Below, piece after piece: positions 5,606-14,985 of a DNA stretch of 64,000 nucleotides (positions within the stretch are counted from its first letter, which is position 1; each line of letters begins with the position of its first letter). Both the position numbers and the translations under genes were made by a program. The notes below the pieces were generated by a model that saw nothing but the letters and a program-made list of their open reading frames with translations, searched no databases and was not told the origin of the DNA. Source of the stretch: an uncultured Clostridia bacterium (GTDB lineage Bacteria; Bacillota; Clostridia; Lachnospirales; CAMZNU01); the NCBI GenBank assembly GCA_947313885.1, contig CAMZNU010000002.1:4321-68320 (forward strand). Direction: 5' to 3'.

Positions 5606-8116
5606 ATGAGTTATTTCTATGAAACGGTACAAAGTAATGAAAACATACCAATTAAAATATTTACCCACGAATTAGAATATTCACCGTATCATTGGCATAG
5701 AGAAATAGAAATTTTATTTGTTTTAAATGGAGAAGTAGATATAAAAATAGGTAATGACAAATATACTGTATTAGAAAACGAAATATTTATAATAAACCCA
5801 AATGAAATACATTTTATATCATCAAAGGCAACGGATAATAAAGCAAAAATTTTAGTGTTGCAATTTAGTGCAAATGTTTTTAAAAAATATAATTTAGATA
5901 TATCAGACATGTTTTTTAGAATTGAAAGTAAAAAGAATGAAAAAAATAAAGAAATGTTTTATAATATGAAATCTATATTAGCTAACATAATGAATGTCGT
6001 AATAAACAATGAAACTTTGTTACGATTAAAGGTTGAAAAATTATTAATTGAATTGATCATAATAATGATTAATAATTTTAACGTAGAGGGGGCGGGAAAT
6101 AAAGATATAGCATTTCATTATGATGAACGTATTAATAAAATACTAAAATTTATAGATGATAAAAGCAATGAGCAAAGTTTAAGTATAAATAAAATTGCTA
6201 ATGAATTTTATTTAACGCCAGAATACTTATCAAAATATTTCAAAAAAAATGTTGGAATTTCATTAAAGAAGTTTATAAATGTAATTAGATTAAATAAATC
6301 TTTATATGACTTAAAGTTGAATAATGAAAATATATCGGATATAGCATATAAGTTTGGGTTTCCAGATACAAAAGCTTATTATAGAGTGTTTAAGGAGAAT
6401 ATTGGAACAACACCAATACAATATAGAAAAACATATAAAATAGAAGTAGAAAATAAAAATAAATTAAGTTATTTGAATGTGAATAGTGAAACGTCCTTAT
6501 CATCGTTATTTAAATATTTAAAATACAATACAAATGATACAGAAACATATTCACCAATTTACGATACAGTTGTAATAGATGGAAAAGTAAAAGGTGAGTT
6601 TAGAGAAAACAATTATGCAAATTTAACTACTTTTGGATATGCACCACATGGGTTAAGAAGTGATTTTGAAAGCCAGCTAAAGGAAGCACAAAGATGTATA
6701 AAATTTAAACATATACGATTTCATGGTATTTTTTCTGATGAAATACTTATTTATAATGAAGATAATGAAGGGGAAGTGTATTATAACTTTAATCACTTAG
6801 ATGCTCTTTTAGATATAATATTGAAAAATGAATTAACTCCATTTATAGAATTGGGGTTTATGCCAACACAATTAAGATCAAATGAAGAAACGGTTTTTTT
6901 ATGGAAAGCAAATATAAGCCCACCTAAAAAAGTTGAAAAGTGGAAAAATTTAATTGAAGAATTTTTAAAACATCTAATAAATAGGTATGGAATAGATAAC
7001 ATAAGAAAATGGCATTTTGAGTTTTGGAATGAACCAGAGTTTGGTGGGCTTTTTTGGTCATCAGATAAAAAAACTTTTTTTAATTTTTTCTTAGAGACGT
7101 ATAAAAGTGTTAAGAGCATTGATAAGGAAATAAAAATAGGCGGATTTGGAACTGTAAATCTAGAAAATTCTAAATCATGGTTAAATAGTTTTGAAAAGTT
7201 TTGTATTAAGAAAAAAATTAAATTAGATTTTTATAGTTTTCATATATATTTAACGACTATAAGTAACAAAGATGATAATTTATTAGATTCAAAATTAACG
7301 ATAGACAAAATAAGAAAAATGGAATTATCAAAGATAGGTGATATAAAATTAGGTAATAGCGAATATTTAAAAGAGTCCACTAATAAAATTTTAAAAAATG
7401 TAGAAAATGATATATTTAGTTCAAATTATTGGATTACAGAATGGAATGCTAGTACCAATAGTAGAGATCTAACACATGATACATGTTTTATGGCATCGTT
7501 TATAGTAAAAAACACACTTAGCATTAGTGATAAAGTAAGTGGTATGGGGTATTGGAGTTTATCAGACATATTTGAAGAACAAAGATTAGAACAACCGCTA
7601 TTTCATGGTGGATTTGGATTAATTACATATAACGGTTTAAAAAAACCAAGCTTCCATGCGTTTTATTTCATGAAAAAATTATTTGAAGAAATAATATACA
7701 TATCAGATAGTGCGATAGTGACGAAAAACAATGAAGATTATGGAGTAATAATATTTAATTATATACACTACAACGAATTATATAAAAAAAATGATCATTC
7801 ACAAATAAGCCAAAAAATTAGATATAACGTATTTGAAAACAATAATAAAAAAGAAATATCGTTAATATTAGAAAATATAGAAGGAGATTATTTAGTAGAA
7901 GAAGAATGGGTTAACCGTAAAAATGGTTCTGTATATGATGCGTGGTTAGAAATAGGTGCACCAGAAAAACTAACTAAAGAAGCGTATACAAAATTAAAAG
8001 CTAATAGTGAAGTTGGTTACAAAACATATGGCATTAACATTAAAGGTGATTTTAAAATAAATTTACGGTTATTGCCTCATGAGGTTAGGTACATATCAAT
8101 AAAGAAAAAATACTAA
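5606..8116 (+). CDS. AraC-family regulator (cupin + HTH) fused to a GH39 glycoside hydrolase domain
   Basis: 836 aa in a single ORF. Residues 1-~275 are an AraC-type cupin (HWHREIEILFVLNG) plus a dual HTH (LSINKIANEFYLTPEYLSKYF ... DIAYKFGFPDTKAYYRVFKENIGTTPIQYR). The remainder resembles XynB-type GH39, with RFHGIF, the acid/base motif FEFWNEPE and the nucleophile region WITEWN. No signal peptide. Confidence 0.8.
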   Translation: MSYFYETVQSNENIPIKIFTHELEYSPYHWHREIEILFVLNGEVDIKIGNDKYTVLENEIFIINPNEIHFISSKATDNKAKILVLQFSANVFKKYNLDISDMFFRIESKKNEKNKEMFYNMKSILANIMNVVINNETLLRLKVEKLLIELIIIMINNFNVEGAGNKDIAFHYDERINKILKFIDDKSNEQSLSINKIANEFYLTPEYLSKYFKKNVGISLKKFINVIRLNKSLYDLKLNNENISDIAYKFGFPDTKAYYRVFKENIGTTPIQYRKTYKIEVENKNKLSYLNVNSETSLSSLFKYLKYNTNDTETYSPIYDTVVIDGKVKGEFRENNYANLTTFGYAPHGLRSDFESQLKEAQRCIKFKHIRFHGIFSDEILIYNEDNEGEVYYNFNHLDALLDIILKNELTPFIELGFMPTQLRSNEETVFLWKANISPPKKVEKWKNLIEEFLKHLINRYGIDNIRKWHFEFWNEPEFGGLFWSSDKKTFFNFFLETYKSVKSIDKEIKIGGFGTVNLENSKSWLNSFEKFCIKKKIKLDFYSFHIYLTTISNKDDNLLDSKLTIDKIRKMELSKIGDIKLGNSEYLKESTNKILKNVENDIFSSNYWITEWNASTNSRDLTHDTCFMASFIVKNTLSISDKVSGMGYWSLSDIFEEQRLEQPLFHGGFGLITYNGLKKPSFHAFYFMKKLFEEIIYISDSAIVTKNNEDYGVIIFNYIHYNELYKKNDHSQISQKIRYNVFENNNKKEISLILENIEGDYLVEEEWVNRKNGSVYDAWLEIGAPEKLTKEAYTKLKANSEVGYKTYGINIKGDFKINLRLLPHEVRYISIKKKY

Positions 8117-8314: not shown

Positions 8315-8959
8315 ATGAAATTAATAATATTCGATTTAGATGGAGTTATAGTTTCGACAGATAAATATCATTATTTAGCTTGGAAAAAAATTTCTACAAA
8401 TAATGAGATGGAATTTGATGAAAAACTTAACAATGAATTAAGAGGTGTAAGTAGAGTTGAAAGTTTAAAAATAATTTTAAACTTTAATAATAAAGTTATT
8501 GATGACGTTAAGTTTAATGAATTATTAGAAGAAAAAAATGATATCTACAAAAGCTCATTAAGTTCATTAAGTGAAAAAGATATATTAGAAGGAGTAATTC
8601 CATTAATAAAGTCGTTAAAAGATAACGGGATTAAAATTGCAATAGGTTCATCTAGTAAAAATGCTAAGACGATTCTTAAGCAGGTAAAACTTATTGATGA
8701 GTTTGATGCGATAGTAGATGGAAACGACATAAAAAATAGCAAACCAGATCCAGAAGTATTTATTAAATGTTGCGAGAAATTAAGTATAAGTAATTTAGAT
8801 AGTTATGTTTTTGAAGATGCAGAAGCGGGAGTAGAAGCAGGACTAAGAGGAAATATGAAAACTATAGGCGTTGGAAAAGAAAAATTAAAAAAAGCACATA
8901 TACATTTTGAAAGTTTAAATAATATAACATACGACACATTAAAAAATTTAAAAATATAA
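8315..8959 (+). CDS. pgmB: Beta-phosphoglucomutase (HAD superfamily)
   Basis: 214 aa with the FDLDGVI nucleophile motif, LRGVSR, SSSKN, and KPDPEVF...FEDAEAGVEAG. It aligns end to end with my recollection of Lactococcus beta-PGM. Confidence 0.85.
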   Translation: MKLIIFDLDGVIVSTDKYHYLAWKKISTNNEMEFDEKLNNELRGVSRVESLKIILNFNNKVIDDVKFNELLEEKNDIYKSSLSSLSEKDILEGVIPLIKSLKDNGIKIAIGSSSKNAKTILKQVKLIDEFDAIVDGNDIKNSKPDPEVFIKCCEKLSISNLDSYVFEDAEAGVEAGLRGNMKTIGVGKEKLKKAHIHFESLNNITYDTLKNLKI

Positions 8960-8970
8960 AGGAGATAATA

Positions 8971-10692
8971 ATGAATAATATTGATTTAAAAGGAATGCCA
9001 TTTAATTTAAATGATGAGGAAATAAAATGGGTAAATGAAACAAAAAATAATATGAGTATTGAAGAAAAAATAGGACAATTATTTTTCTTAATAGGATTTA
9101 CAACAGAAAAAGAAGTTTTAAAATCAGTAGTGAACAATATTAGACCAGGCGGAATGATGTATAGAAAAACGGGACAAAAAAATGTAGTAGAAGCACATAA
9201 AACTTTACAAAGTGCATCAAAAATTCCGATGCTTTTAGCCGCTAATATAGAGGCAGGAGGTAATGGACTTATAGAAGAAGGAACATTTTATGGTCATCAA
9301 ATGTTAGTAGGAGCTACAAAAGATGAAGAATATGCATATAAGCTAGGGCTAATATCAGGAAGAGAAGCAGGATCTGTAGGTGGTAATATGGCGTTTGCTC
9401 CAATTCTTGATATAAATAAAAACTTTAGAAATCCAATTACAAATGTAAGATCTTTTGGAGATGATAAAGAAACGATAGCAAAAATGAGTTCGGCATATGT
9501 TAGAGGTGCACAAGATGCAGGAATTAGTGTAACTATAAAACATTTCCCAGGTGATGGGATGGACGGTAGAGATCAACATTTAGTAACTACACATAATACA
9601 TGTGAAGTTGATGAATGGAGAGAAAGTTTTGGAATGATATATGAAAAAAGTATAAAAGATGGTGCAAGAGGATTAATGGTAGGACATATATCATTGCCAG
9701 CGTATATGGATAAGTATGCAAGTGATAAACCAGAATTAAAATACTATCCAGCAACATTAAACCCAGTATTATTAAATAAACTTTTAAGAGAAGAGTTAGG
9801 GTATAACGGTTTAACAATGACAGATGCAACATTAATGACAGGATTTGGACAAATGGGTAAAAGAAAAGATTTAGTACCGGAAAGTATAGCGGCAGGTTGT
9901 GATATGTTTTTATTTACAAGAATGCCAGAAGACGATTATAAGTTTATGATGGACGGATATAAAAATGGAGTAATTACAGATGAGAGGTTAGATGAAGCGT
10001 TAACAAGAATATTAGCAATGAAAGCATCGTTAAAAATGAACGGTAAAACAGTAGATGAGTTAGTGCCAGATAACTTTGATAAAATAAATAAAGAAGAACA
10101 TGATAGATGGACAAAAGAATTAGCTTATAAAGGAGTAACATTAGTTAAAAATGATGAAAATTTATTACCACTTGATAATAAAAAATACAAAAAAATAGGA
10201 ATAATGTATAACGGAAATGAATCTTTAGAAAAAGCAGTATTCGGAGAAGAAGAAAAAGGATTAAAAGTATATGAGAAGATGGTAAATGCATTAAACAAGC
10301 AAGGGTTTGAAGCTTTTTACTATGACTTTGGTAACATTATGAACGTGTTACAAGACATGCAAAAACCATTAGACGAGTGGACAAGTCAATTTGATGCAAT
10401 CATATATTTAACAAAAAAAGAAGTTATGTCAAATCAAACTAGCTTACAATTAAATTATAAAGCTATGGGATTTGATGCACCATGGTTTGTAAAAGAAGTA
10501 CCAACAATATTAGTATCTTTAGCAAATCCTTATCAAACTTATGACTTACCTATGATAAATACAGTTATAAATGCATATTCAGCTACAGAACATATTTTTG
10601 ATGCTATAGCAGAAAAAATAGCAGGTAAAAGTAAATTTGAAGGTATATCACCAGTACAATTAGACTTTAAAGAAATACCAATTATTTTATAG
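8971..10692 (+). CDS. Glycoside hydrolase family 3 protein, NagZ/Nag3-like (Asp-His dyad type)
   Basis: 573 aa. The GH3 N-domain carries KHFPGDGMDGRDQH, which fits the pattern KHFPG-x-G-x4-D-x-H. No signal peptide. Confidence 0.8.
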   Translation: MNNIDLKGMPFNLNDEEIKWVNETKNNMSIEEKIGQLFFLIGFTTEKEVLKSVVNNIRPGGMMYRKTGQKNVVEAHKTLQSASKIPMLLAANIEAGGNGLIEEGTFYGHQMLVGATKDEEYAYKLGLISGREAGSVGGNMAFAPILDINKNFRNPITNVRSFGDDKETIAKMSSAYVRGAQDAGISVTIKHFPGDGMDGRDQHLVTTHNTCEVDEWRESFGMIYEKSIKDGARGLMVGHISLPAYMDKYASDKPELKYYPATLNPVLLNKLLREELGYNGLTMTDATLMTGFGQMGKRKDLVPESIAAGCDMFLFTRMPEDDYKFMMDGYKNGVITDERLDEALTRILAMKASLKMNGKTVDELVPDNFDKINKEEHDRWTKELAYKGVTLVKNDENLLPLDNKKYKKIGIMYNGNESLEKAVFGEEEKGLKVYEKMVNALNKQGFEAFYYDFGNIMNVLQDMQKPLDEWTSQFDAIIYLTKKEVMSNQTSLQLNYKAMGFDAPWFVKEVPTILVSLANPYQTYDLPMINTVINAYSATEHIFDAIAEKIAGKSKFEGISPVQLDFKEIPIIL

Positions 10693-10712
10693 AGCTAAAA
10701 TAGGAGAATTTT

Positions 10713-12497
10713 ATGAAAGCTATAATGATTATGTTCGATACACTTAGTAGAAGATATTTACCTAACTATGGAAATGATTGGGTTAAAATGCCAAACTTTG
10801 AGCGTTTAGGTGAAAAAACAGTAACTATGGACAATTTTTATGTAGGAAGTTTACCATGTATGCCAGCTAGACGTGAGTTACATACAGGGCGTGTAAACTT
10901 TTTACATAGAGGTTGGTCGCCTCTTGAACCATTTGACGATTCAATGCCAGAAATATTAAAAAATAATAATGTATATACACACCTTATTACAGACCATCAA
11001 CATTATTGGGAAGATGGGGGAGCTACGTATCATAATAGATATAATTCTTATGAGTTTATAAGAGGGCAAGAAGGTGATTTATGGAAAGGTGTTGTAAAAG
11101 ATCCAGAAGATATGCCAGAGCATATTAATCATATGCTAGGATTTATGAAAGAAATTAGAAGACATGATTTTATAAATCGCAAATATATGATAGAAGATGA
11201 GGATTATCCGCAAGCACAATGTTTTAATAAAGGTCTTGAATTTTTAGAAAAAAATAAAGATGCTGATAATTGGTTTTTACAAATAGAATCTTTTGATCCT
11301 CATGAACCATTTTGTGTACCAGATAGATTTAAGGAAATGTATAAAGATGAATTTGAAGGTGAATTTGATTGGCCAGGGTATGGAAATAGTGGTAGTGATT
11401 CAGAGGAAAAAATAAAACATGGAAGACATATGTATGCAGCACTTATGAGTATGTGCGATGAATATTTAGGTAAAGTTATAGACTTTATGGATGATAATAA
11501 TATGTGGGATGATACTATGCTTATTGTCAATACAGACCATGGTTTTTTAATGGGAGAAAAAGAGTGGTGGGGTAAAAATATTATGCCAAATTACAATGAA
11601 GTAGCGCATACACCATTTTTCATATGGGATCCTAGAACTAAAATTAAAAACGAAAGAAGACAATCGTTAAGCCAAACGATAGATATAGCACCGACTATCC
11701 TTGATTATTTCGAACAAGAAATACCAAAAGATATGGAAGGTAAAACATTAAAAGATGTAGTAAAGACAGATAGTAAAATAAGGGATTACGGATTGTACGG
11801 TATATTTGGTGGACATGTAAATATTACAGATGGAAAATATACGTATATGAGGTCTTGCGACACATTTGGTAATGGTGATATTTTTGAATATACACTAATG
11901 CCTATGGATATGCGAGGAATGAAAAGCACAAAAATATTAGAAAAAGCACAACTTAGCAAACCATTCAATTTCACAAAAGGCGTACCACTGTTAAAAATGA
12001 AACCTAGTATGGCTATGATAAATCCTTATTTAACTGGTCATATGTTATTTGATTTAAAAAATGATCCATATCAACAAAATGCTATAGATAATTTTGAAAT
12101 AGAAAGTGAGATGTGTAAAGCAATAGTTGAATTAATGGTTAAAAATGATGCACCAAAAGAGCAATTTGAAAGAATAGGTTTATCATCAAGTAAAGAAATA
12201 ACAGCAGAACAATTAAAAGAAAATAAAATAAGAAGAGAAGAAGATGAAAATAGATTATTTGAAATGTTAGGAATGGAAATAGAAGATGATGCTAAAAATC
12301 CATTTTTAAGCTTAGCTAGTAACGTGCCAAAAGATTTTTTAGGAAACTTTATAGGTGGATTTAAAAAAATATTAGAACAAAAAAATGTAGATGTTGTAAC
12401 TATTAATGAAGTTGTTGAATTTATGAAACTACAAATGCCACCGCAATTTGCATCATTTGCAGGTATGTTAATTAAATCATCATCAAGACGAAAATAG
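10713..12497 (+). CDS. Cys-type sulfatase (S1 family), cytoplasmic
   Basis: 594 aa. It has the sulfatase signature LPCMPARRELHTGR (C-x-P-x-R), the metal-site motifs MFDT and NTDHGF, and no signal peptide. A maturase gene lies two ORFs downstream. Confidence 0.85.
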   Translation: MKAIMIMFDTLSRRYLPNYGNDWVKMPNFERLGEKTVTMDNFYVGSLPCMPARRELHTGRVNFLHRGWSPLEPFDDSMPEILKNNNVYTHLITDHQHYWEDGGATYHNRYNSYEFIRGQEGDLWKGVVKDPEDMPEHINHMLGFMKEIRRHDFINRKYMIEDEDYPQAQCFNKGLEFLEKNKDADNWFLQIESFDPHEPFCVPDRFKEMYKDEFEGEFDWPGYGNSGSDSEEKIKHGRHMYAALMSMCDEYLGKVIDFMDDNNMWDDTMLIVNTDHGFLMGEKEWWGKNIMPNYNEVAHTPFFIWDPRTKIKNERRQSLSQTIDIAPTILDYFEQEIPKDMEGKTLKDVVKTDSKIRDYGLYGIFGGHVNITDGKYTYMRSCDTFGNGDIFEYTLMPMDMRGMKSTKILEKAQLSKPFNFTKGVPLLKMKPSMAMINPYLTGHMLFDLKNDPYQQNAIDNFEIESEMCKAIVELMVKNDAPKEQFERIGLSSSKEITAEQLKENKIRREEDENRLFEMLGMEIEDDAKNPFLSLASNVPKDFLGNFIGGFKKILEQKNVDVVTINEVVEFMKLQMPPQFASFAGMLIKSSSRRK

Positions 12498-12507
12498 GGG
12501 GATACAT

Positions 12508-13857
12508 ATGGAATCTAATAAAGGCAAAATGCCATTAAAAAACATAATGGGATACGGTGTAGCATCAATAGGATTTAACTTTGTATATTTATTATCAGCA
12601 CAATTTTTAAATATTTATTATACGAATGTTTTAGGAATTTCCCTAGCGAGTGTTGGGGTTATAATGTTAATAGCAAGATTATGGGATGGGGTTAATGATC
12701 CTATAATGGGAAGTATAGTAGATAGAACCAATACAAAACAAGGTAAATATAGACCATATTTAATATGGGGAATACTTCCATTAGCAAGTACTACAGCACT
12801 GTTATATTACTATCCAAGTGCATTAGGTGAAAATAATAAAGTAATATATGCAGGAGTTACGTATATATTATTTGGTATGGCATATACTTTTGCAAACATA
12901 CCATACTTAGCTATGCAATCTACACTTTCTTATGATAGTGACGAGAGAACGAAAATAATAACTATAAAAAATGTATTTACATTAGTGGGAATATTGTTTA
13001 TGACTATAATTATTCCTAAGATAGCATTTGATAGCACAGGACCAACAGCATCAGGTTTTTTAAAAGGTGGTCTTATAGGTGCTGTTATAGTTATAATAAC
13101 AATGCCAATTAGTTATTTATCTACATCTAAATTTAAATTTAATGATGACATTAAAGAAAAAAAAGAGAAAATAACATTTGCAGATATGAAAGAAGCTTTA
13201 TTATCAAATAAACCATTAATGCAAATAGCAGGTACATTATTTATAATATCTATAGGTGGAACGTTAGTGGGAGGTGGTAACTACTACTTTATAAACGTAA
13301 TAGACCGTAGTGATTTAGTGGGGTTATTTGCACTATCAACTATGATGCCTATGATGGTTGGAATGGCTCTTATGCCAATAGCTATGAAGTTTGAGAAAAA
13401 GAATGTAATGGGATATGGAATGATAATGTATGGAGTAGTTTCGTTTATAATGTTTTTTGTACCACAGGAAAACCCAATGTTGTTTATTATATTAAATGGA
13501 GTTAGAGGATTAGGATTTGGAACAGCGATGATATTAATATGGTCAATGATAGCAGATACGGTAGACTATGCGAAATTAAAAACGGGTAAACAACAAGGTG
13601 GTATAGTGTTTTCAACATCAACATTTATGCAAAAGTCAGCAGGTGGGTTAGGTATTGCACTTATGAATTTTTTAATGATTAAAGTAGGTCTTGATGCCAC
13701 ATCTAATGTACAATCAGCTAGTACGGCTAAAGGGTTAATATTTATAATAGCAGTATTACCAGGTATACTATATTTAATTAATGGTATATATCTAATATTA
13801 AAATATCCATTAAATAAATCATACATGAAAGAAATACAAGAAAAATTAGGTAGATAA
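12508..13857 (+). CDS. Glycoside-pentoside-hexuronide (GPH/MelB family) cation symporter
   Basis: 449 aa polytopic membrane protein with the GPH motif WDGVNDPIMGSIVDRTNTKQGKYRPY. Confidence 0.85.
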   Translation: MESNKGKMPLKNIMGYGVASIGFNFVYLLSAQFLNIYYTNVLGISLASVGVIMLIARLWDGVNDPIMGSIVDRTNTKQGKYRPYLIWGILPLASTTALLYYYPSALGENNKVIYAGVTYILFGMAYTFANIPYLAMQSTLSYDSDERTKIITIKNVFTLVGILFMTIIIPKIAFDSTGPTASGFLKGGLIGAVIVIITMPISYLSTSKFKFNDDIKEKKEKITFADMKEALLSNKPLMQIAGTLFIISIGGTLVGGGNYYFINVIDRSDLVGLFALSTMMPMMVGMALMPIAMKFEKKNVMGYGMIMYGVVSFIMFFVPQENPMLFIILNGVRGLGFGTAMILIWSMIADTVDYAKLKTGKQQGGIVFSTSTFMQKSAGGLGIALMNFLMIKVGLDATSNVQSASTAKGLIFIIAVLPGILYLINGIYLILKYPLNKSYMKEIQEKLGR

Positions 13858-13872
13858 TAAGAGGAGAAAAAA

Positions 13873-14985
13873 TTGAAAAATATAAATTTTTTAATAAAAC
13901 CATCATCTAGTAAATGTAACTTAAAATGTAAATATTGTTTTTATAATGACATAGCACAAAATAGAGATGTAGCAGATTACGGATTTATGAAAATTGAAAC
14001 GGCTAAAAATATTATAGAAAAAGCATATAAATTTTCAAATGGCGGTTATGTAACATTTGCATTTCAGGGAGGCGAACCTACATTAATAGGTATCGAGTTT
14101 TATGAAAAATTTGTAGAAATGACAATAAGTAAATTTGGAAGCCTAAAGAATATAGCTTTTGCGTTACAAACAAATGGAATTATTATTAATGATGAATGGG
14201 GAAAATTTTTTAAAGAAAACAATTTCTTAGTAGGAATATCTATAGATGGAACAAAAGATATACATAACTTAAACAGAATTGACTTTAGTAATGAAGGGAC
14301 TTACAAAGAAGCATTAAGAGGTGTTAAAATATTAGAAAAATATGAAGTGGACTTTAATATTTTAACTGTAGTGCATAAAGTTGTGTCAAAGAAAATAAAT
14401 AAAATATATCGAGAATATAGAAAAAATAACTTTACTCATTTGCAGTTTATACCGTGTATAGACATAAATGAAAAAAGTGATCCGAATAATTTTTTATTAA
14501 CAAATGAACAACATTTATTATTTTTAAAATCACTATTTGATTTATGGTATACAGATTATATGAATGGTAATAAAGTTAACATCAGATATTTTGATAATAT
14601 ATTAGGAATATTTTTAGGATATTTACCAGAAAGTTGTACTACAATGGGAATATGCTCTATGCAACATGCAATAGAAGGAGATGGATCAGTATACCCATGT
14701 GATTTTTACGTAACAGATGAATACAAAATAGGGGACATAAATAGAGATGACATAGAAGACATGCAAAAAAATAATATTACTAGTGATTTTATTAAGGAAT
14801 CTTATGTTCTAAATAATGATTGCAAAAGATGTGAATTTTTACAACTGTGCAGAGGTGGCTGTAAAAAGTTCAGAAATGATAAAAAAAATTATTACTGTAA
14901 TACGTATAAAGAATTTTTTAAATATTCGCATGAAAGATTTAATAAGTTAGCTACAAAAATAAAAATGGATACTTTTATAAAATAA
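13873..14985 (+). CDS. Anaerobic sulfatase-maturating enzyme (radical SAM / SPASM)
   Basis: 370 aa with a TTG start. It has the radical-SAM motif CNLKCKYC (Cx3Cx2C), GGEPTL, and C-terminal Cys clusters including CKRCEFLQLCRGGC. It is adjacent to the Cys-type sulfatase. Confidence 0.85.
   Translation: MKNINFLIKPSSSKCNLKCKYCFYNDIAQNRDVADYGFMKIETAKNIIEKAYKFSNGGYVTFAFQGGEPTLIGIEFYEKFVEMTISKFGSLKNIAFALQTNGIIINDEWGKFFKENNFLVGISIDGTKDIHNLNRIDFSNEGTYKEALRGVKILEKYEVDFNILTVVHKVVSKKINKIYREYRKNNFTHLQFIPCIDINEKSDPNNFLLTNEQHLLFLKSLFDLWYTDYMNGNKVNIRYFDNILGIFLGYLPESCTTMGICSMQHAIEGDGSVYPCDFYVTDEYKIGDINRDDIEDMQKNNITSDFIKESYVLNNDCKRCEFLQLCRGGCKKFRNDKKNYYCNTYKEFFKYSHERFNKLATKIKMDTFIK

What the first reader, a model, noticed from the sequence alone, without database searches (positions are those of the whole stretch)
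8315..10692. Beta-phosphoglucomutase paired with an Asp-His-dyad GH3 and no GH65/GH94 phosphorylase: a possible GH3 phosphorylase pathway
Seen directly: pgmB ends 11 nt before a GH3 gene whose catalytic loop reads KHFPGDGMDGRDQH, the NagZ-type D-x-H pattern rather than the Glu acid/base of classical GH3 beta-glucosidases. Established knowledge: beta-PGM consumes beta-glucose-1-phosphate, which is normally produced by inverting GH65-type phosphorylases, and none is present here. Published work on Cellulomonas fimi Nag3 showed that GH3 enzymes with the Asp-His dyad can act as phosphorylases yielding beta-glycosyl phosphates. Inference: this GH3 may phosphorolyse the imported, desulfated beta-glucoside, and PgmB may channel the product into glycolysis.
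Basis: partly seen in the sequence, partly recalled or inferred. Interest (0 to 1): 0.55.

Follow-up and report, generated by a model that had tools for sequence, protein, structure and literature searches.

The report
Beta-glucoside phosphorylase operon with beta-phosphoglucomutase

Summary
pgmB (8315-8959) ends 11 nt before a 573-aa GH3 gene (8971-10692) whose loop reads KHFPGDGMDGRDQH. The window and its 95.8%-complete genome hold no GH65, no GH94 and no second pgmB.

The best solved-structure match is BglP (PDB 5VQD/5VQE), the characterised GH3 retaining beta-glucoside phosphorylase:
- sequence match E 1e-113 over the full length;
- predicted-model TM-score 0.90/0.93 at 38% identity;
- the same RDQH loop.

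Comparative genomics ties this GH3 clade to pgmB:
- Of 80 species with a BglP-like GH3, 49 have pgmB within 10 kb (32 directly adjacent) and 74 have it somewhere in the genome.
- Only 3 of the 80 loci contain GH65.
- In 200 genomes of the same class, all 32 with pgmB carry GH65 or a BglP-like GH3. The four without GH65 all carry the GH3.

So GH3 + Pi gives beta-Glc1P, which PgmB converts to Glc6P, is the likely route. The substrate is probably a sulfated beta-glucoside, because a cytoplasmic Cys-type sulfatase, its anSME maturase and a GPH symporter share the operon. That part is inference.

This scan has found BglP-pgmB operons before on other DNA. The verdict is a new member of a known kind. 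Only the sulfatase-coupled variant is uncommon (2 of 80 loci).

The parts
5606..8116 (+). AraC-family regulator with a C-terminal GH39-like domain, the probable regulator of the operon
   Evidence: Pfam AraC_binding, HTH_18 and Glyco_hydro_39. Homologues lie within 10 kb of BglP-like GH3 genes in 34 of 80 loci and in L014, L017, L101 and L102.
8315..8959 (+). pgmB, beta-phosphoglucomutase (214 aa)
   Evidence: TIGR01990 226.5 bits against a cut-off of 189.4. N-terminal FDLDG motif. Best PDB matches are beta-PGMs 4GIB, 3NAS and 1LVH at E 1e-38 to 1e-43. It is the only pgmB in the genome.
8971..10692 (+). BglP-type GH3, a probable retaining beta-glucoside phosphorylase (573 aa, no signal peptide)
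   Evidence: PF00933 E 6e-60. 5VQD BglP E 1e-113 over residues 9-563. AF2 model pLDDT 88.7. Foldseek TM 0.90/0.93 and 38% identity to 5VQD/5VQE.
9538..9579 (+). Catalytic loop KHFPGDGMDGRDQH (K190-H203), with the Asp201-His203 dyad and Gln202
   Evidence: Read directly. It aligns with BglP KHFPGDGVDYRDQH. K190-G196, D198, R200, D201 and H203 are invariant in 24 homologues. The loop ends D-Q-H in 76 of 80 related loci.
9823..9825 (+). Codon of Asp285, the predicted catalytic nucleophile (GLTMTDAT)
   Evidence: Invariant in alignment A1. It aligns with the TDA of BglP and of the NagZ structures, where YbbD D318 is the nucleophile mutated in 4GYJ.
10713..12497 (+). Cytoplasmic Cys-type (formylglycine) sulfatase (594 aa)
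   Evidence: PF00884 and SGSH_C. C49-M-P-A-R motif and no signal peptide. Orthologues at 49% identity lie next to BglP-like GH3, pgmB and anSME in Neobacillus rhizosphaerae (L035) and Sphaerochaeta (L083).
12508..13857 (+). GPH-family glycoside:cation symporter, the probable importer
   Evidence: PF13347 MFS_2 E 2e-85 and TIGR00792 295.8 bits. MFS_2 genes recur in related loci.
13873..14985 (+). Anaerobic sulfatase-maturating enzyme (radical SAM/SPASM)
   Evidence: TIGR03942 374.5 bits against a cut-off of 349.45.

Best explanation
Genes 8315-14985 form one cytoplasmic catabolic operon with intergenic gaps of 10-20 nt. It lies downstream of an AraC/GH39-like regulator. The proposed steps are as follows. 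A GPH symporter imports a small beta-glucoside, probably a sulfated one. An anSME-matured Cys-sulfatase removes the sulfate. The GH3, a member of the BglP clade, cleaves the beta-glucosidic bond by double displacement: Asp285 is the nucleophile, His203/Asp201 the acid/base, and phosphate replaces water as the acceptor, giving beta-glucose 1-phosphate with retention. PgmB isomerises that product to glucose 6-phosphate, which saves the ATP that a kinase would spend.

Shown here: the homology, the catalytic residues, the fold, the absence of GH65, and the conserved gene pairing. Inferred: phosphate dependence of this particular protein, the identity of the substrate, and the order of desulfation and phosphorolysis.
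For: (1) The best solved-structure match is the characterised phosphorylase BglP, E 1e-113 over the full length, with the loop KHFPGDG..RDQH shared. The best hydrolase reaches only 8.5e-44.
(2) The AF2 model (pLDDT 88.7) superposes on 5VQD/5VQE at TM 0.90/0.93, rmsd 2.2 A and 38% identity. NagZ gives TM 0.80/0.74 at 24%.
(3) D201, H203, D285 and the KHFPGDG block are invariant in 24 homologues. The loop is D-Q-H in 76 of 80 related loci.
(4) pgmB is a bona fide beta-PGM, the only one in the genome. The genome has no GH65.
(5) Among 80 species-representative loci with a BglP-like GH3, pgmB is directly adjacent in 32 and within 10 kb in 17 more. GH65 is present in only 3 loci. Of the 31 loci without a nearby pgmB, 25 have it elsewhere in the genome. 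That makes 74 of 80, against 32 of 200 in a class-level sample.
(6) In that sample of 200 genomes, every pgmB-positive genome has GH65 (28) or, failing that, a BglP-like GH3 (4: G000, G065, G086, G232). pgmB lies 32-69 bp from the GH3 in the last three.
(7) C. hydrogeniformans, Bacillus sp. MRMR6 and Vibrio sp. HA2012 carry the GH3-pgmB pair and no GH65.
(8) A review (PMC8950772) lists BglP and Nag3 as retaining GH3 phosphorylases that yield beta-sugar 1-phosphates. [quoted passage not shown]
(9) None of the GH3, pgmB or sulfatase proteins has a signal peptide, and the operon encodes an importer.
Against: Identity to BglP is only 38%, and no member of the window's own subclade (57-70% identity) has been characterised. 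By my recollection, BglP was characterised mainly on activated aryl glucosides, and its natural substrate and in vivo flux are unknown. The three phosphate-recognition positions reported by Franceus et al. 2021 could not be checked because the paper is not held. Six of the 80 genomes with a BglP-like GH3 show no pgmB, though several of these are incomplete MAGs. The sulfated-substrate part rests on gene neighbourhood alone. Sulfatase genes accompany the GH3 in only 2 of 80 species loci. Related genomes are not independent, so the co-occurrence counts overstate the statistical weight.
Confidence: 0.77

Rival explanations
1. The GH3 is an ordinary hydrolase, either a beta-glucosidase or a NagZ-like beta-N-acetylglucosaminidase. 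The HAD protein next to it serves an unrelated role, for example as a sugar-phosphate phosphatase.
For: Most GH3 enzymes are hydrolases. NCBIfam gives only sub-threshold matches to NagZ and BglX models. Databases name homologues 'beta-N-acetylhexosaminidase' or 'glycoside hydrolase family 3 protein'. The literature notes that GH3 holds both hydrolases and phosphorylases for related substrates (PMC11442529).
Against: The HAD protein exceeds the equivalog cut-off for beta-PGM. Hydrolysis would leave it with no substrate source in a genome without GH65. The pairing recurs in 49 of 80 loci, and pgmB-positive genomes without GH65 always carry this GH3. The loop matches BglP, not NagZ.
Confidence: 0.12
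2. The GH3 is a phosphorylase for another sugar, such as beta-GlcNAc as in Nag3, or a sulfated glucose. The HAD enzyme then isomerises that sugar phosphate rather than beta-Glc1P.
For: Nag3 acts on GlcNAc-containing substrates (PMC8950772). The adjacent sulfatase would allow for a sulfated sugar. Four of the 80 relatives have D-H-H instead of D-Q-H, which shows that this position varies.
Against: The window has Gln202, as in BglP, and not the Ser/Thr of GlcNAc-specific NagZ enzymes. By my recollection of the abstract of Macdonald et al. 2018 (not verified here), Gln-to-Ser swaps BglP from Glc to GlcNAc specificity. pgmB matches the beta-PGM equivalog at full length.
Confidence: 0.07
3. The pair works in the synthetic direction. 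PgmB makes beta-Glc1P from Glc6P, and the GH3 uses it to glucosylate an acceptor by reverse phosphorolysis.
For: Phosphorolysis is reversible. BglP and Nag3 use beta-Glc1P as donor in vitro (PMC8950772 Table 1; PMC11442529).
Against: The operon carries an importer, a sulfatase and an AraC-type sugar regulator, which is a catabolic layout. It has no exporter or acceptor-biosynthesis genes. Related loci add esterases, phosphatases and further glycosidases.
Confidence: 0.03

Closest known systems
BglP, a GH3 retaining beta-glucoside phosphorylase from a mine-tailings bioreactor metagenome (PDB 5VQD/5VQE; Macdonald et al. 2018 J Biol Chem, PMID 29317495)
   Same: Same length class (573 aa against about 560-573), the same two-domain fold (TM 0.90/0.93) and the same KHFPGDG-x4-RDQH loop and TDA nucleophile motif. 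It is by far the best match among all solved structures.
   Different: Identity is only 38%. The window protein belongs to an uncharacterised subclade whose members share 57-70% identity with it. It sits in an operon with a sulfatase and anSME. The gene context of BglP itself could not be examined here.
Cellulomonas fimi Nag3, a GH3 beta-N-acetylglucosaminide/beta-glucoside phosphorylase (Macdonald et al. 2015 J Biol Chem, PMID 25533455)
   Same: A retaining GH3 that uses a His/Asp dyad as acid/base and phosphate as acceptor, producing beta-sugar 1-phosphate (PMC8950772).
   Different: Nag3's preferred reaction is on GlcNAc-anhydroMurNAc in peptidoglycan recycling.
NagZ/YbbD-type GH3 beta-N-acetylglucosaminidases (for example B. 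subtilis YbbD, 3BMX/4GYJ; Paenibacillus 6K5J)
   Same: The GH3 fold, the Asp nucleophile and the Asp-x-His dyad loop.
   Different: These have KHFPGHG and D-[ST]-H, and identity is 23-24%. The genome has its own canonical NagZ on contig C5 (KHFPGHGDTNVDSH). They are hydrolases for GlcNAc, not linked to pgmB.
GH65 phosphorylase + PgmB operons (maltose, trehalose and kojibiose phosphorylases; Lactococcus lactis beta-PGM)
   Same: The same logic: a phosphorylase yields beta-Glc1P, which PgmB converts to Glc6P. In 28 of 32 pgmB-positive genomes of the class sample the partner is GH65.
   Different: GH65 enzymes invert alpha-glucosides. Here a retaining GH3 acts on beta-glucosides, and GH65 is absent from the genome.
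BglP-pgmB operons reported earlier in this scan on other genomes (e1-3888329, e1-2681517, e1-5113853, e1-5113849)
   Same: The same GH3 clade next to pgmB, without GH65, often with enzymes that strip decorations.
   Different: Those carry rhamnosidase, esterases or a second GH3. This one carries a formylglycine sulfatase with its anaerobic maturase.

Membership tests
BglP-type GH3 beta-glucoside phosphorylase | GH3 catalytic domain and two-domain architecture | tested here: met
   PF00933 E 6e-60. PF01915 is weak (25.9 bits, below the cut-off of 31). The model aligns with 5VQD over 574 columns.
BglP-type GH3 beta-glucoside phosphorylase | Closer to BglP than to any characterised GH3 hydrolase | tested here: met
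   phmmer gives E 1e-113 for 5VQD against 8.5e-44 for the best NagZ. Foldseek gives TM 0.90 at 38% identity against 0.80 at 24%.
BglP-type GH3 beta-glucoside phosphorylase | Catalytic nucleophile Asp in the (S/T)-D-A motif | tested here: met
   D285 in GLTMTDAT, invariant in A1 and aligned to the BglP TDA.
BglP-type GH3 beta-glucoside phosphorylase | Asp-His dyad as acid/base instead of Glu | tested here: met
   D201 and H203 are invariant in 24 homologues and present in all 80 related loci.
BglP-type GH3 beta-glucoside phosphorylase | Gln between the dyad residues (glucoside rather than GlcNAc specificity) and Asp in KHFPG-D-G | tested here: met
   Q202 and D195 are identical to BglP. The loop is D-Q-H in 76 of 80 loci. 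The functional meaning of the Gln is recalled from the abstract of Macdonald 2018, which is not held here.
BglP-type GH3 beta-glucoside phosphorylase | Three active-site positions for phosphate recognition (Franceus et al. 2021, ACS Catal 11:6225) | not testable with these tools
   The paper is not held. Only its summary in PMC10913872 was read, and the positions are not named there.
BglP-type GH3 beta-glucoside phosphorylase | Phosphate-dependent cleavage giving beta-Glc1P | not testable with these tools
   This needs an enzyme assay.
Beta-phosphoglucomutase (TIGR01990, EC 5.4.2.6) | Score above the equivalog cut-off over the full model | tested here: met
   226.5 bits against 189.4, model positions 1-187 of 187.
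Beta-phosphoglucomutase (TIGR01990, EC 5.4.2.6) | HAD DxDG nucleophile motif and closest solved relatives being beta-PGMs | tested here: met
   FDLDGV at residues 6-11. 4GIB, 3NAS and 1LVH at E 3e-43 to 4e-38.
NagZ-type GH3 beta-N-acetylglucosaminidase | KHFPGHG-x4-D-[ST]-H motif | tested here: not met
   The window has KHFPGDG-x4-D-Q-H. The genome's C5 GH3 has the canonical motif. The NF003740 score is 107.8 against a cut-off of 207.
Classical GH3 beta-glucosidase (BglX/ExoI type) | Full-length similarity with a Glu acid/base in the C-terminal domain | tested here: not met
   BglX NF011678 scores 89.6 bits against a cut-off of 666. PDB beta-glucosidases reach only E 1e-12 to 1e-17 and 16-21% identity. 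The position of the Glu itself was not aligned.
Type I (formylglycine) sulfatase with anaerobic maturase | C/S-x-P-x-R motif and a cognate anSME | tested here: met
   C49-M-P-A-R. PF00884. The anSME scores 374.5 bits on TIGR03942 against 349.45, two genes downstream.

The most novel reading that the evidence does not exclude
The BglP family has no established natural substrate. This operon and its relatives suggest that the family's physiological role is ATP-saving cytoplasmic catabolism of decorated small beta-glucosides. In this reading the window is a dedicated route for a sulfated beta-glucoside: import by a GPH symporter, desulfation by an anSME-matured cytoplasmic sulfatase of an uncharacterised family, phosphorolysis, then PgmB. 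Sulfated beta-glucosides are a substrate class for which no bacterial pathway is described. The variable accessory genes in related loci (sulfatase, PAP2 and Tyr-type phosphatases, GDSL, patatin and carboxyl esterases) would then mark the decoration handled by each operon.
Probability: 0.4. Interest if true: 0.55.

Novelty: new member of a known kind. Interest (0 to 1): 0.3.

Why it matters
GH3 phosphorylases are rare. A 2022 review lists only two characterised ones (PMC8950772), and what they degrade in nature is not known. This locus adds a well-supported genomic case that the BglP clade works with beta-phosphoglucomutase in vivo. In the genomes sampled, pgmB is explained either by GH65 or by this GH3. 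The locus also points to sulfated beta-glucosides as a testable natural substrate. Practically, these genes should not be annotated as beta-N-acetylhexosaminidase, which is what public sources call several homologues.

Tried and rejected
- The primary papers (PMC5836126, PMC4335228, doi 10.1021/acscatal.1c00761) are not held. The Gln-to-Ser specificity swap, the phosphate-binding residues, and whether those authors already noted a neighbouring pgmB therefore could not be verified. Full-text searches found no open paper that describes the GH3-pgmB gene pairing.
No phylogeny that includes the characterised enzymes was built, and their own gene neighbourhoods were not checked.
- The promoter and terminator scans gave no more sites than shuffled sequence in this 29% GC DNA. 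Promoter-like sites numbered 72 against 76.6 expected, and terminator-like sites 2 against 1.9. The single-operon reading therefore rests on the 10-20 nt gaps only.
- In the sequencing-run search, no RNA holder is listed. The only holders are three runs of one study labelled epibiont metagenome, one of which may be the source sample. This was not used as evidence.
- The regex for the catalytic loop at first missed the two C35 paralogues. An alignment showed that their loops are degenerate rather than absent.
- The idea that the sulfatase family is specific to BglP operons was rejected. Its relatives at 52-63% identity sit with MFS_2 transporters, a second sulfatase, or GH31 plus anSME, and without a GH3.
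Full report
**Observation.** The window carries, on the + strand, the following genes:
- an AraC-family regulator with a GH39-like C-terminal domain (5606-8116);
- pgmB (8315-8959);
- a GH3 gene (8971-10692);
- a sulfatase (10713-12497);
- a GPH/MFS_2 symporter (12508-13857);
- an anaerobic sulfatase-maturating enzyme (13873-14985).

The gaps between the last five genes are 11, 20, 10 and 15 nt. About 200 nt precede pgmB and about 510 nt follow the maturase, so one operon is the natural reading. The promoter and terminator scans were no better than shuffled sequence in this 29% GC DNA and add nothing.

pgmB scores 226.5 bits on the beta-phosphoglucomutase equivalog TIGR01990, whose cut-off is 189.4. 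It starts with the HAD motif FDLDG. Its nearest solved structures are all beta-PGMs. The GH3 reads KHFPGDGMDGRDQH at residues 190-203 (nt 9538-9579) and GLTMTDAT around Asp285.

**What the GH3 is.** Its best match among all solved structures is 5VQD/5VQE, deposited as 'Beta-glucoside phosphorylase'. This is BglP, the retaining GH3 phosphorylase found by functional metagenomics. The match has E 1e-113 over residues 9-563, and the BglP loop is KHFPGDGVDYRDQH. The best hydrolases (Paenibacillus GH3 NagZ, B. subtilis YbbD) reach only E 1e-43 to 1e-44 and carry D-S-H.

An AlphaFold2 model built on 24 homologues has mean pLDDT 88.7 and pTM 0.90. It superposes on 5VQD at TM 0.90/0.93, rmsd 2.2 A and 38% identity. 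YbbD gives TM 0.80/0.74 at 24% identity, and classical beta-glucosidases give 16-21% identity.

In the 24-sequence alignment, K190-G196, D198, R200, D201, H203 and D285 are invariant. In 80 related loci the loop ends D-Q-H in 76 and D-H-H in 4. The genome's true NagZ, on contig C5, has the canonical KHFPGHGDTNVDSH. The window gene is therefore not a NagZ.

A review lists BglP and C. fimi Nag3 as the only two characterised GH3 phosphorylases, both giving beta-sugar 1-phosphates (PMC8950772). [quoted passage not shown] 2021). I could not read the primary papers. The statement that the Gln between the dyad residues sets glucoside rather than GlcNAc specificity comes from my recollection of the abstract of Macdonald et al. 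2018.

**Is pgmB really tied to this GH3?** I ran three independent tests.

*Own genome.* The assembly is 1.55 Mb in 49 contigs and 95.8% complete. It has no GH65, no GH94 and only this one pgmB.

*Gene neighbourhood.* A scan of one genome per species returned 80 loci that encode a BglP-like GH3 at 41-64% identity. They come from Clostridia, Bacilli, Erysipelotrichales, Spirochaetota, Vibrio, Bacteroidota-labelled MAGs and Anaerolineae.
- A pgmB homologue (at least 35% identity and 70% coverage) lies within 300 bp of the GH3 in 32 loci, on either side.
- It lies within 10 kb in 17 more loci.
- Probing the same loci with two GH65 proteins found GH65 in only three, L057, L069 and L093. The pgmB genes are therefore not there because of a GH65.
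- In the window's own subclade (57-68% identity), five of six metagenomic or genomic neighbourhoods show a HAD_2 gene touching the GH3. A more distant homologue, Clostridium gasigenes at 49%, shows the same.

*Phyletic pattern.* Of the 31 loci with no pgmB nearby, 25 lie in genomes that have a pgmB above the cut-off elsewhere. In total, 74 of 80 carriers of the GH3 have pgmB. In an evenly drawn sample of 200 genomes of the window's class:
- pgmB is above the cut-off in 32;
- GH65 is present in 29;
- a BglP-like GH3 is present in 5.

Twenty-eight of the pgmB genomes have GH65. The other four (G000, G065, G086, G232) are exactly GH3 carriers, and pgmB lies 32-69 bp from the GH3 in the last three. 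The fifth carrier, G062, has pgmB 2.5 kb from the GH3. C. hydrogeniformans, Bacillus sp. MRMR6 and Vibrio sp. HA2012 likewise have the pair and no GH65. Related genomes are not independent, so I attach no p-value. The pattern is nonetheless clean: in the genomes sampled, pgmB is accounted for by GH65 or by this GH3 clade.

**Mechanism proposed.**
- *Shown:* homology to a characterised phosphorylase, the catalytic residues, the fold, the lack of any other beta-Glc1P source, and the conserved pairing.
- *From established knowledge:* a retaining GH3 acting on a beta-glucoside with phosphate as acceptor gives beta-Glc1P. Beta-PGM converts beta-Glc1P to Glc6P. This saves one ATP per glucose compared with hydrolysis plus a kinase.
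- *Inferred:* this particular protein prefers phosphate over water, and its substrate is a sulfated beta-glucoside.

The sulfated-substrate inference rests on the following. The sulfatase has a C49-M-P-A-R formylglycine motif and no signal peptide. Its maturase is two genes downstream. The GH3 and PgmB also lack signal peptides, and the operon encodes a GPH importer.

The same module (sulfatase at 49% identity, anSME, GH3, pgmB) occurs in Neobacillus rhizosphaerae (L035) and a Sphaerochaeta (L083). Different sulfatases sit beside the GH3 in L014 and L104. The variant is therefore real but uncommon, at 2 of 80 species loci.

Other relatives replace the sulfatase with PAP2 or Tyr-type phosphatases, or with GDSL, patatin or carboxyl esterases. 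This fits the idea that these operons deal with decorated glucosides. The sulfatase family itself is widespread and not restricted to BglP operons. It also pairs with MFS_2 transporters and with GH31 plus anSME.

**Rivals.**
- *A plain hydrolase with an unrelated HAD neighbour (about 0.12).* This is hard to square with the phyletic complementarity and with the equivalog-level pgmB.
- *A phosphorylase for another sugar (about 0.07).* This is disfavoured by Gln202.
- *A biosynthetic direction (about 0.03).* This does not fit an importer, sulfatase and regulator operon.

**Comparison with what is known, and novelty.** The enzyme class has been known since 2015 and 2018. This scan has already reported BglP-pgmB operons on other genomes (e1-3888329, e1-2681517, e1-5113853, e1-5113849). 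Those are AI notes, and I re-derived the core claim independently here. I found no open paper that describes the gene pairing, but the primary papers were not readable, so prior mention cannot be excluded.

I file the finding as a new member of a known kind. The sulfatase and anSME coupling is the only uncommon feature. Interest is modest (0.3). The boldest reading still open is a dedicated cytoplasmic pathway for sulfated beta-glucosides, together with a natural role for the BglP family. I rate that at about 0.4 probability and 0.55 interest if true.

Noticed in passing
own genome contig C35 (loci L012:1471-3285 and L013:1489-3207); not in the window: Two tandem GH3 paralogues (572 and 604 aa, 36% identical to the window GH3, E 1e-107 and 1e-115) have degenerate catalytic loops, KQFPGDGIDERDYR and RGFPGNGVDGRNSN. 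Both lack the dyad His, and one also lacks the KH and the dyad Asp. They may be inactive, or may use another acid/base.
   Followed up: partly
window 5606-8116, and 34 of 80 related loci (for example L019:5516-8050, L043:7312-9786): AraC regulators fused to a GH39-like domain recur next to BglP-like GH3 genes, in 34 of 80 loci at 25-44% identity. This suggests that the GH39-like domain is the glycoside sensor for this operon family.
   Followed up: partly
L036:5843-7546, L055:12457-14154, L058:10172-11872: In GH3-pgmB-GH3 loci the second GH3 (36-37% identity) carries KHFPGDGWDELDPH, that is D-P-H instead of D-Q-H. This is a distinct subclade that also flanks pgmB.
   Followed up: no
L022, L034, L061, L092: Four BglP-like GH3 genes have D-H-H instead of D-Q-H. 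The genomes of two of them (Gottfriedia endophytica L061, Paenibacillus sp. 1_12 L092) showed no pgmB at all, which hints at a different specificity.
   Followed up: no
L099 (G045:C4, 964-aa ORF) and G070:C169 (994-aa ORF): Natural GH65-pgmB fusion proteins: a GH65 phosphorylase with a C-terminal beta-PGM domain in one reading frame.
   Followed up: no
L015:10498-11352, L017:13879-14700, L101:11091-11945, L102:6518-7360: A PAP2-family membrane phosphatase gene recurs inside BglP-like GH3 operons, with a Y_phosphatase3 gene as well in L015. Its role is unexplained. It may act on phosphorylated glucosides, or on the sugar phosphate where pgmB is missing.
   Followed up: no
L110-L113 (relatives of the window sulfatase 10713-12497): The 590-aa cytoplasmic sulfatase family is large and uncharacterised, occurring in Bacilli, Clostridia, Pseudomonadota and Asgard archaea MAGs. 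It typically sits beside an MFS_2 transporter. In one widespread cluster it sits beside anSME and a GH31 glycosidase.
   Followed up: partly
window 8971-10692 homologues: Several public sources name members of this clade 'beta-N-acetylhexosaminidase'. This is probably a systematic mis-annotation of BglP-type enzymes.
   Followed up: no
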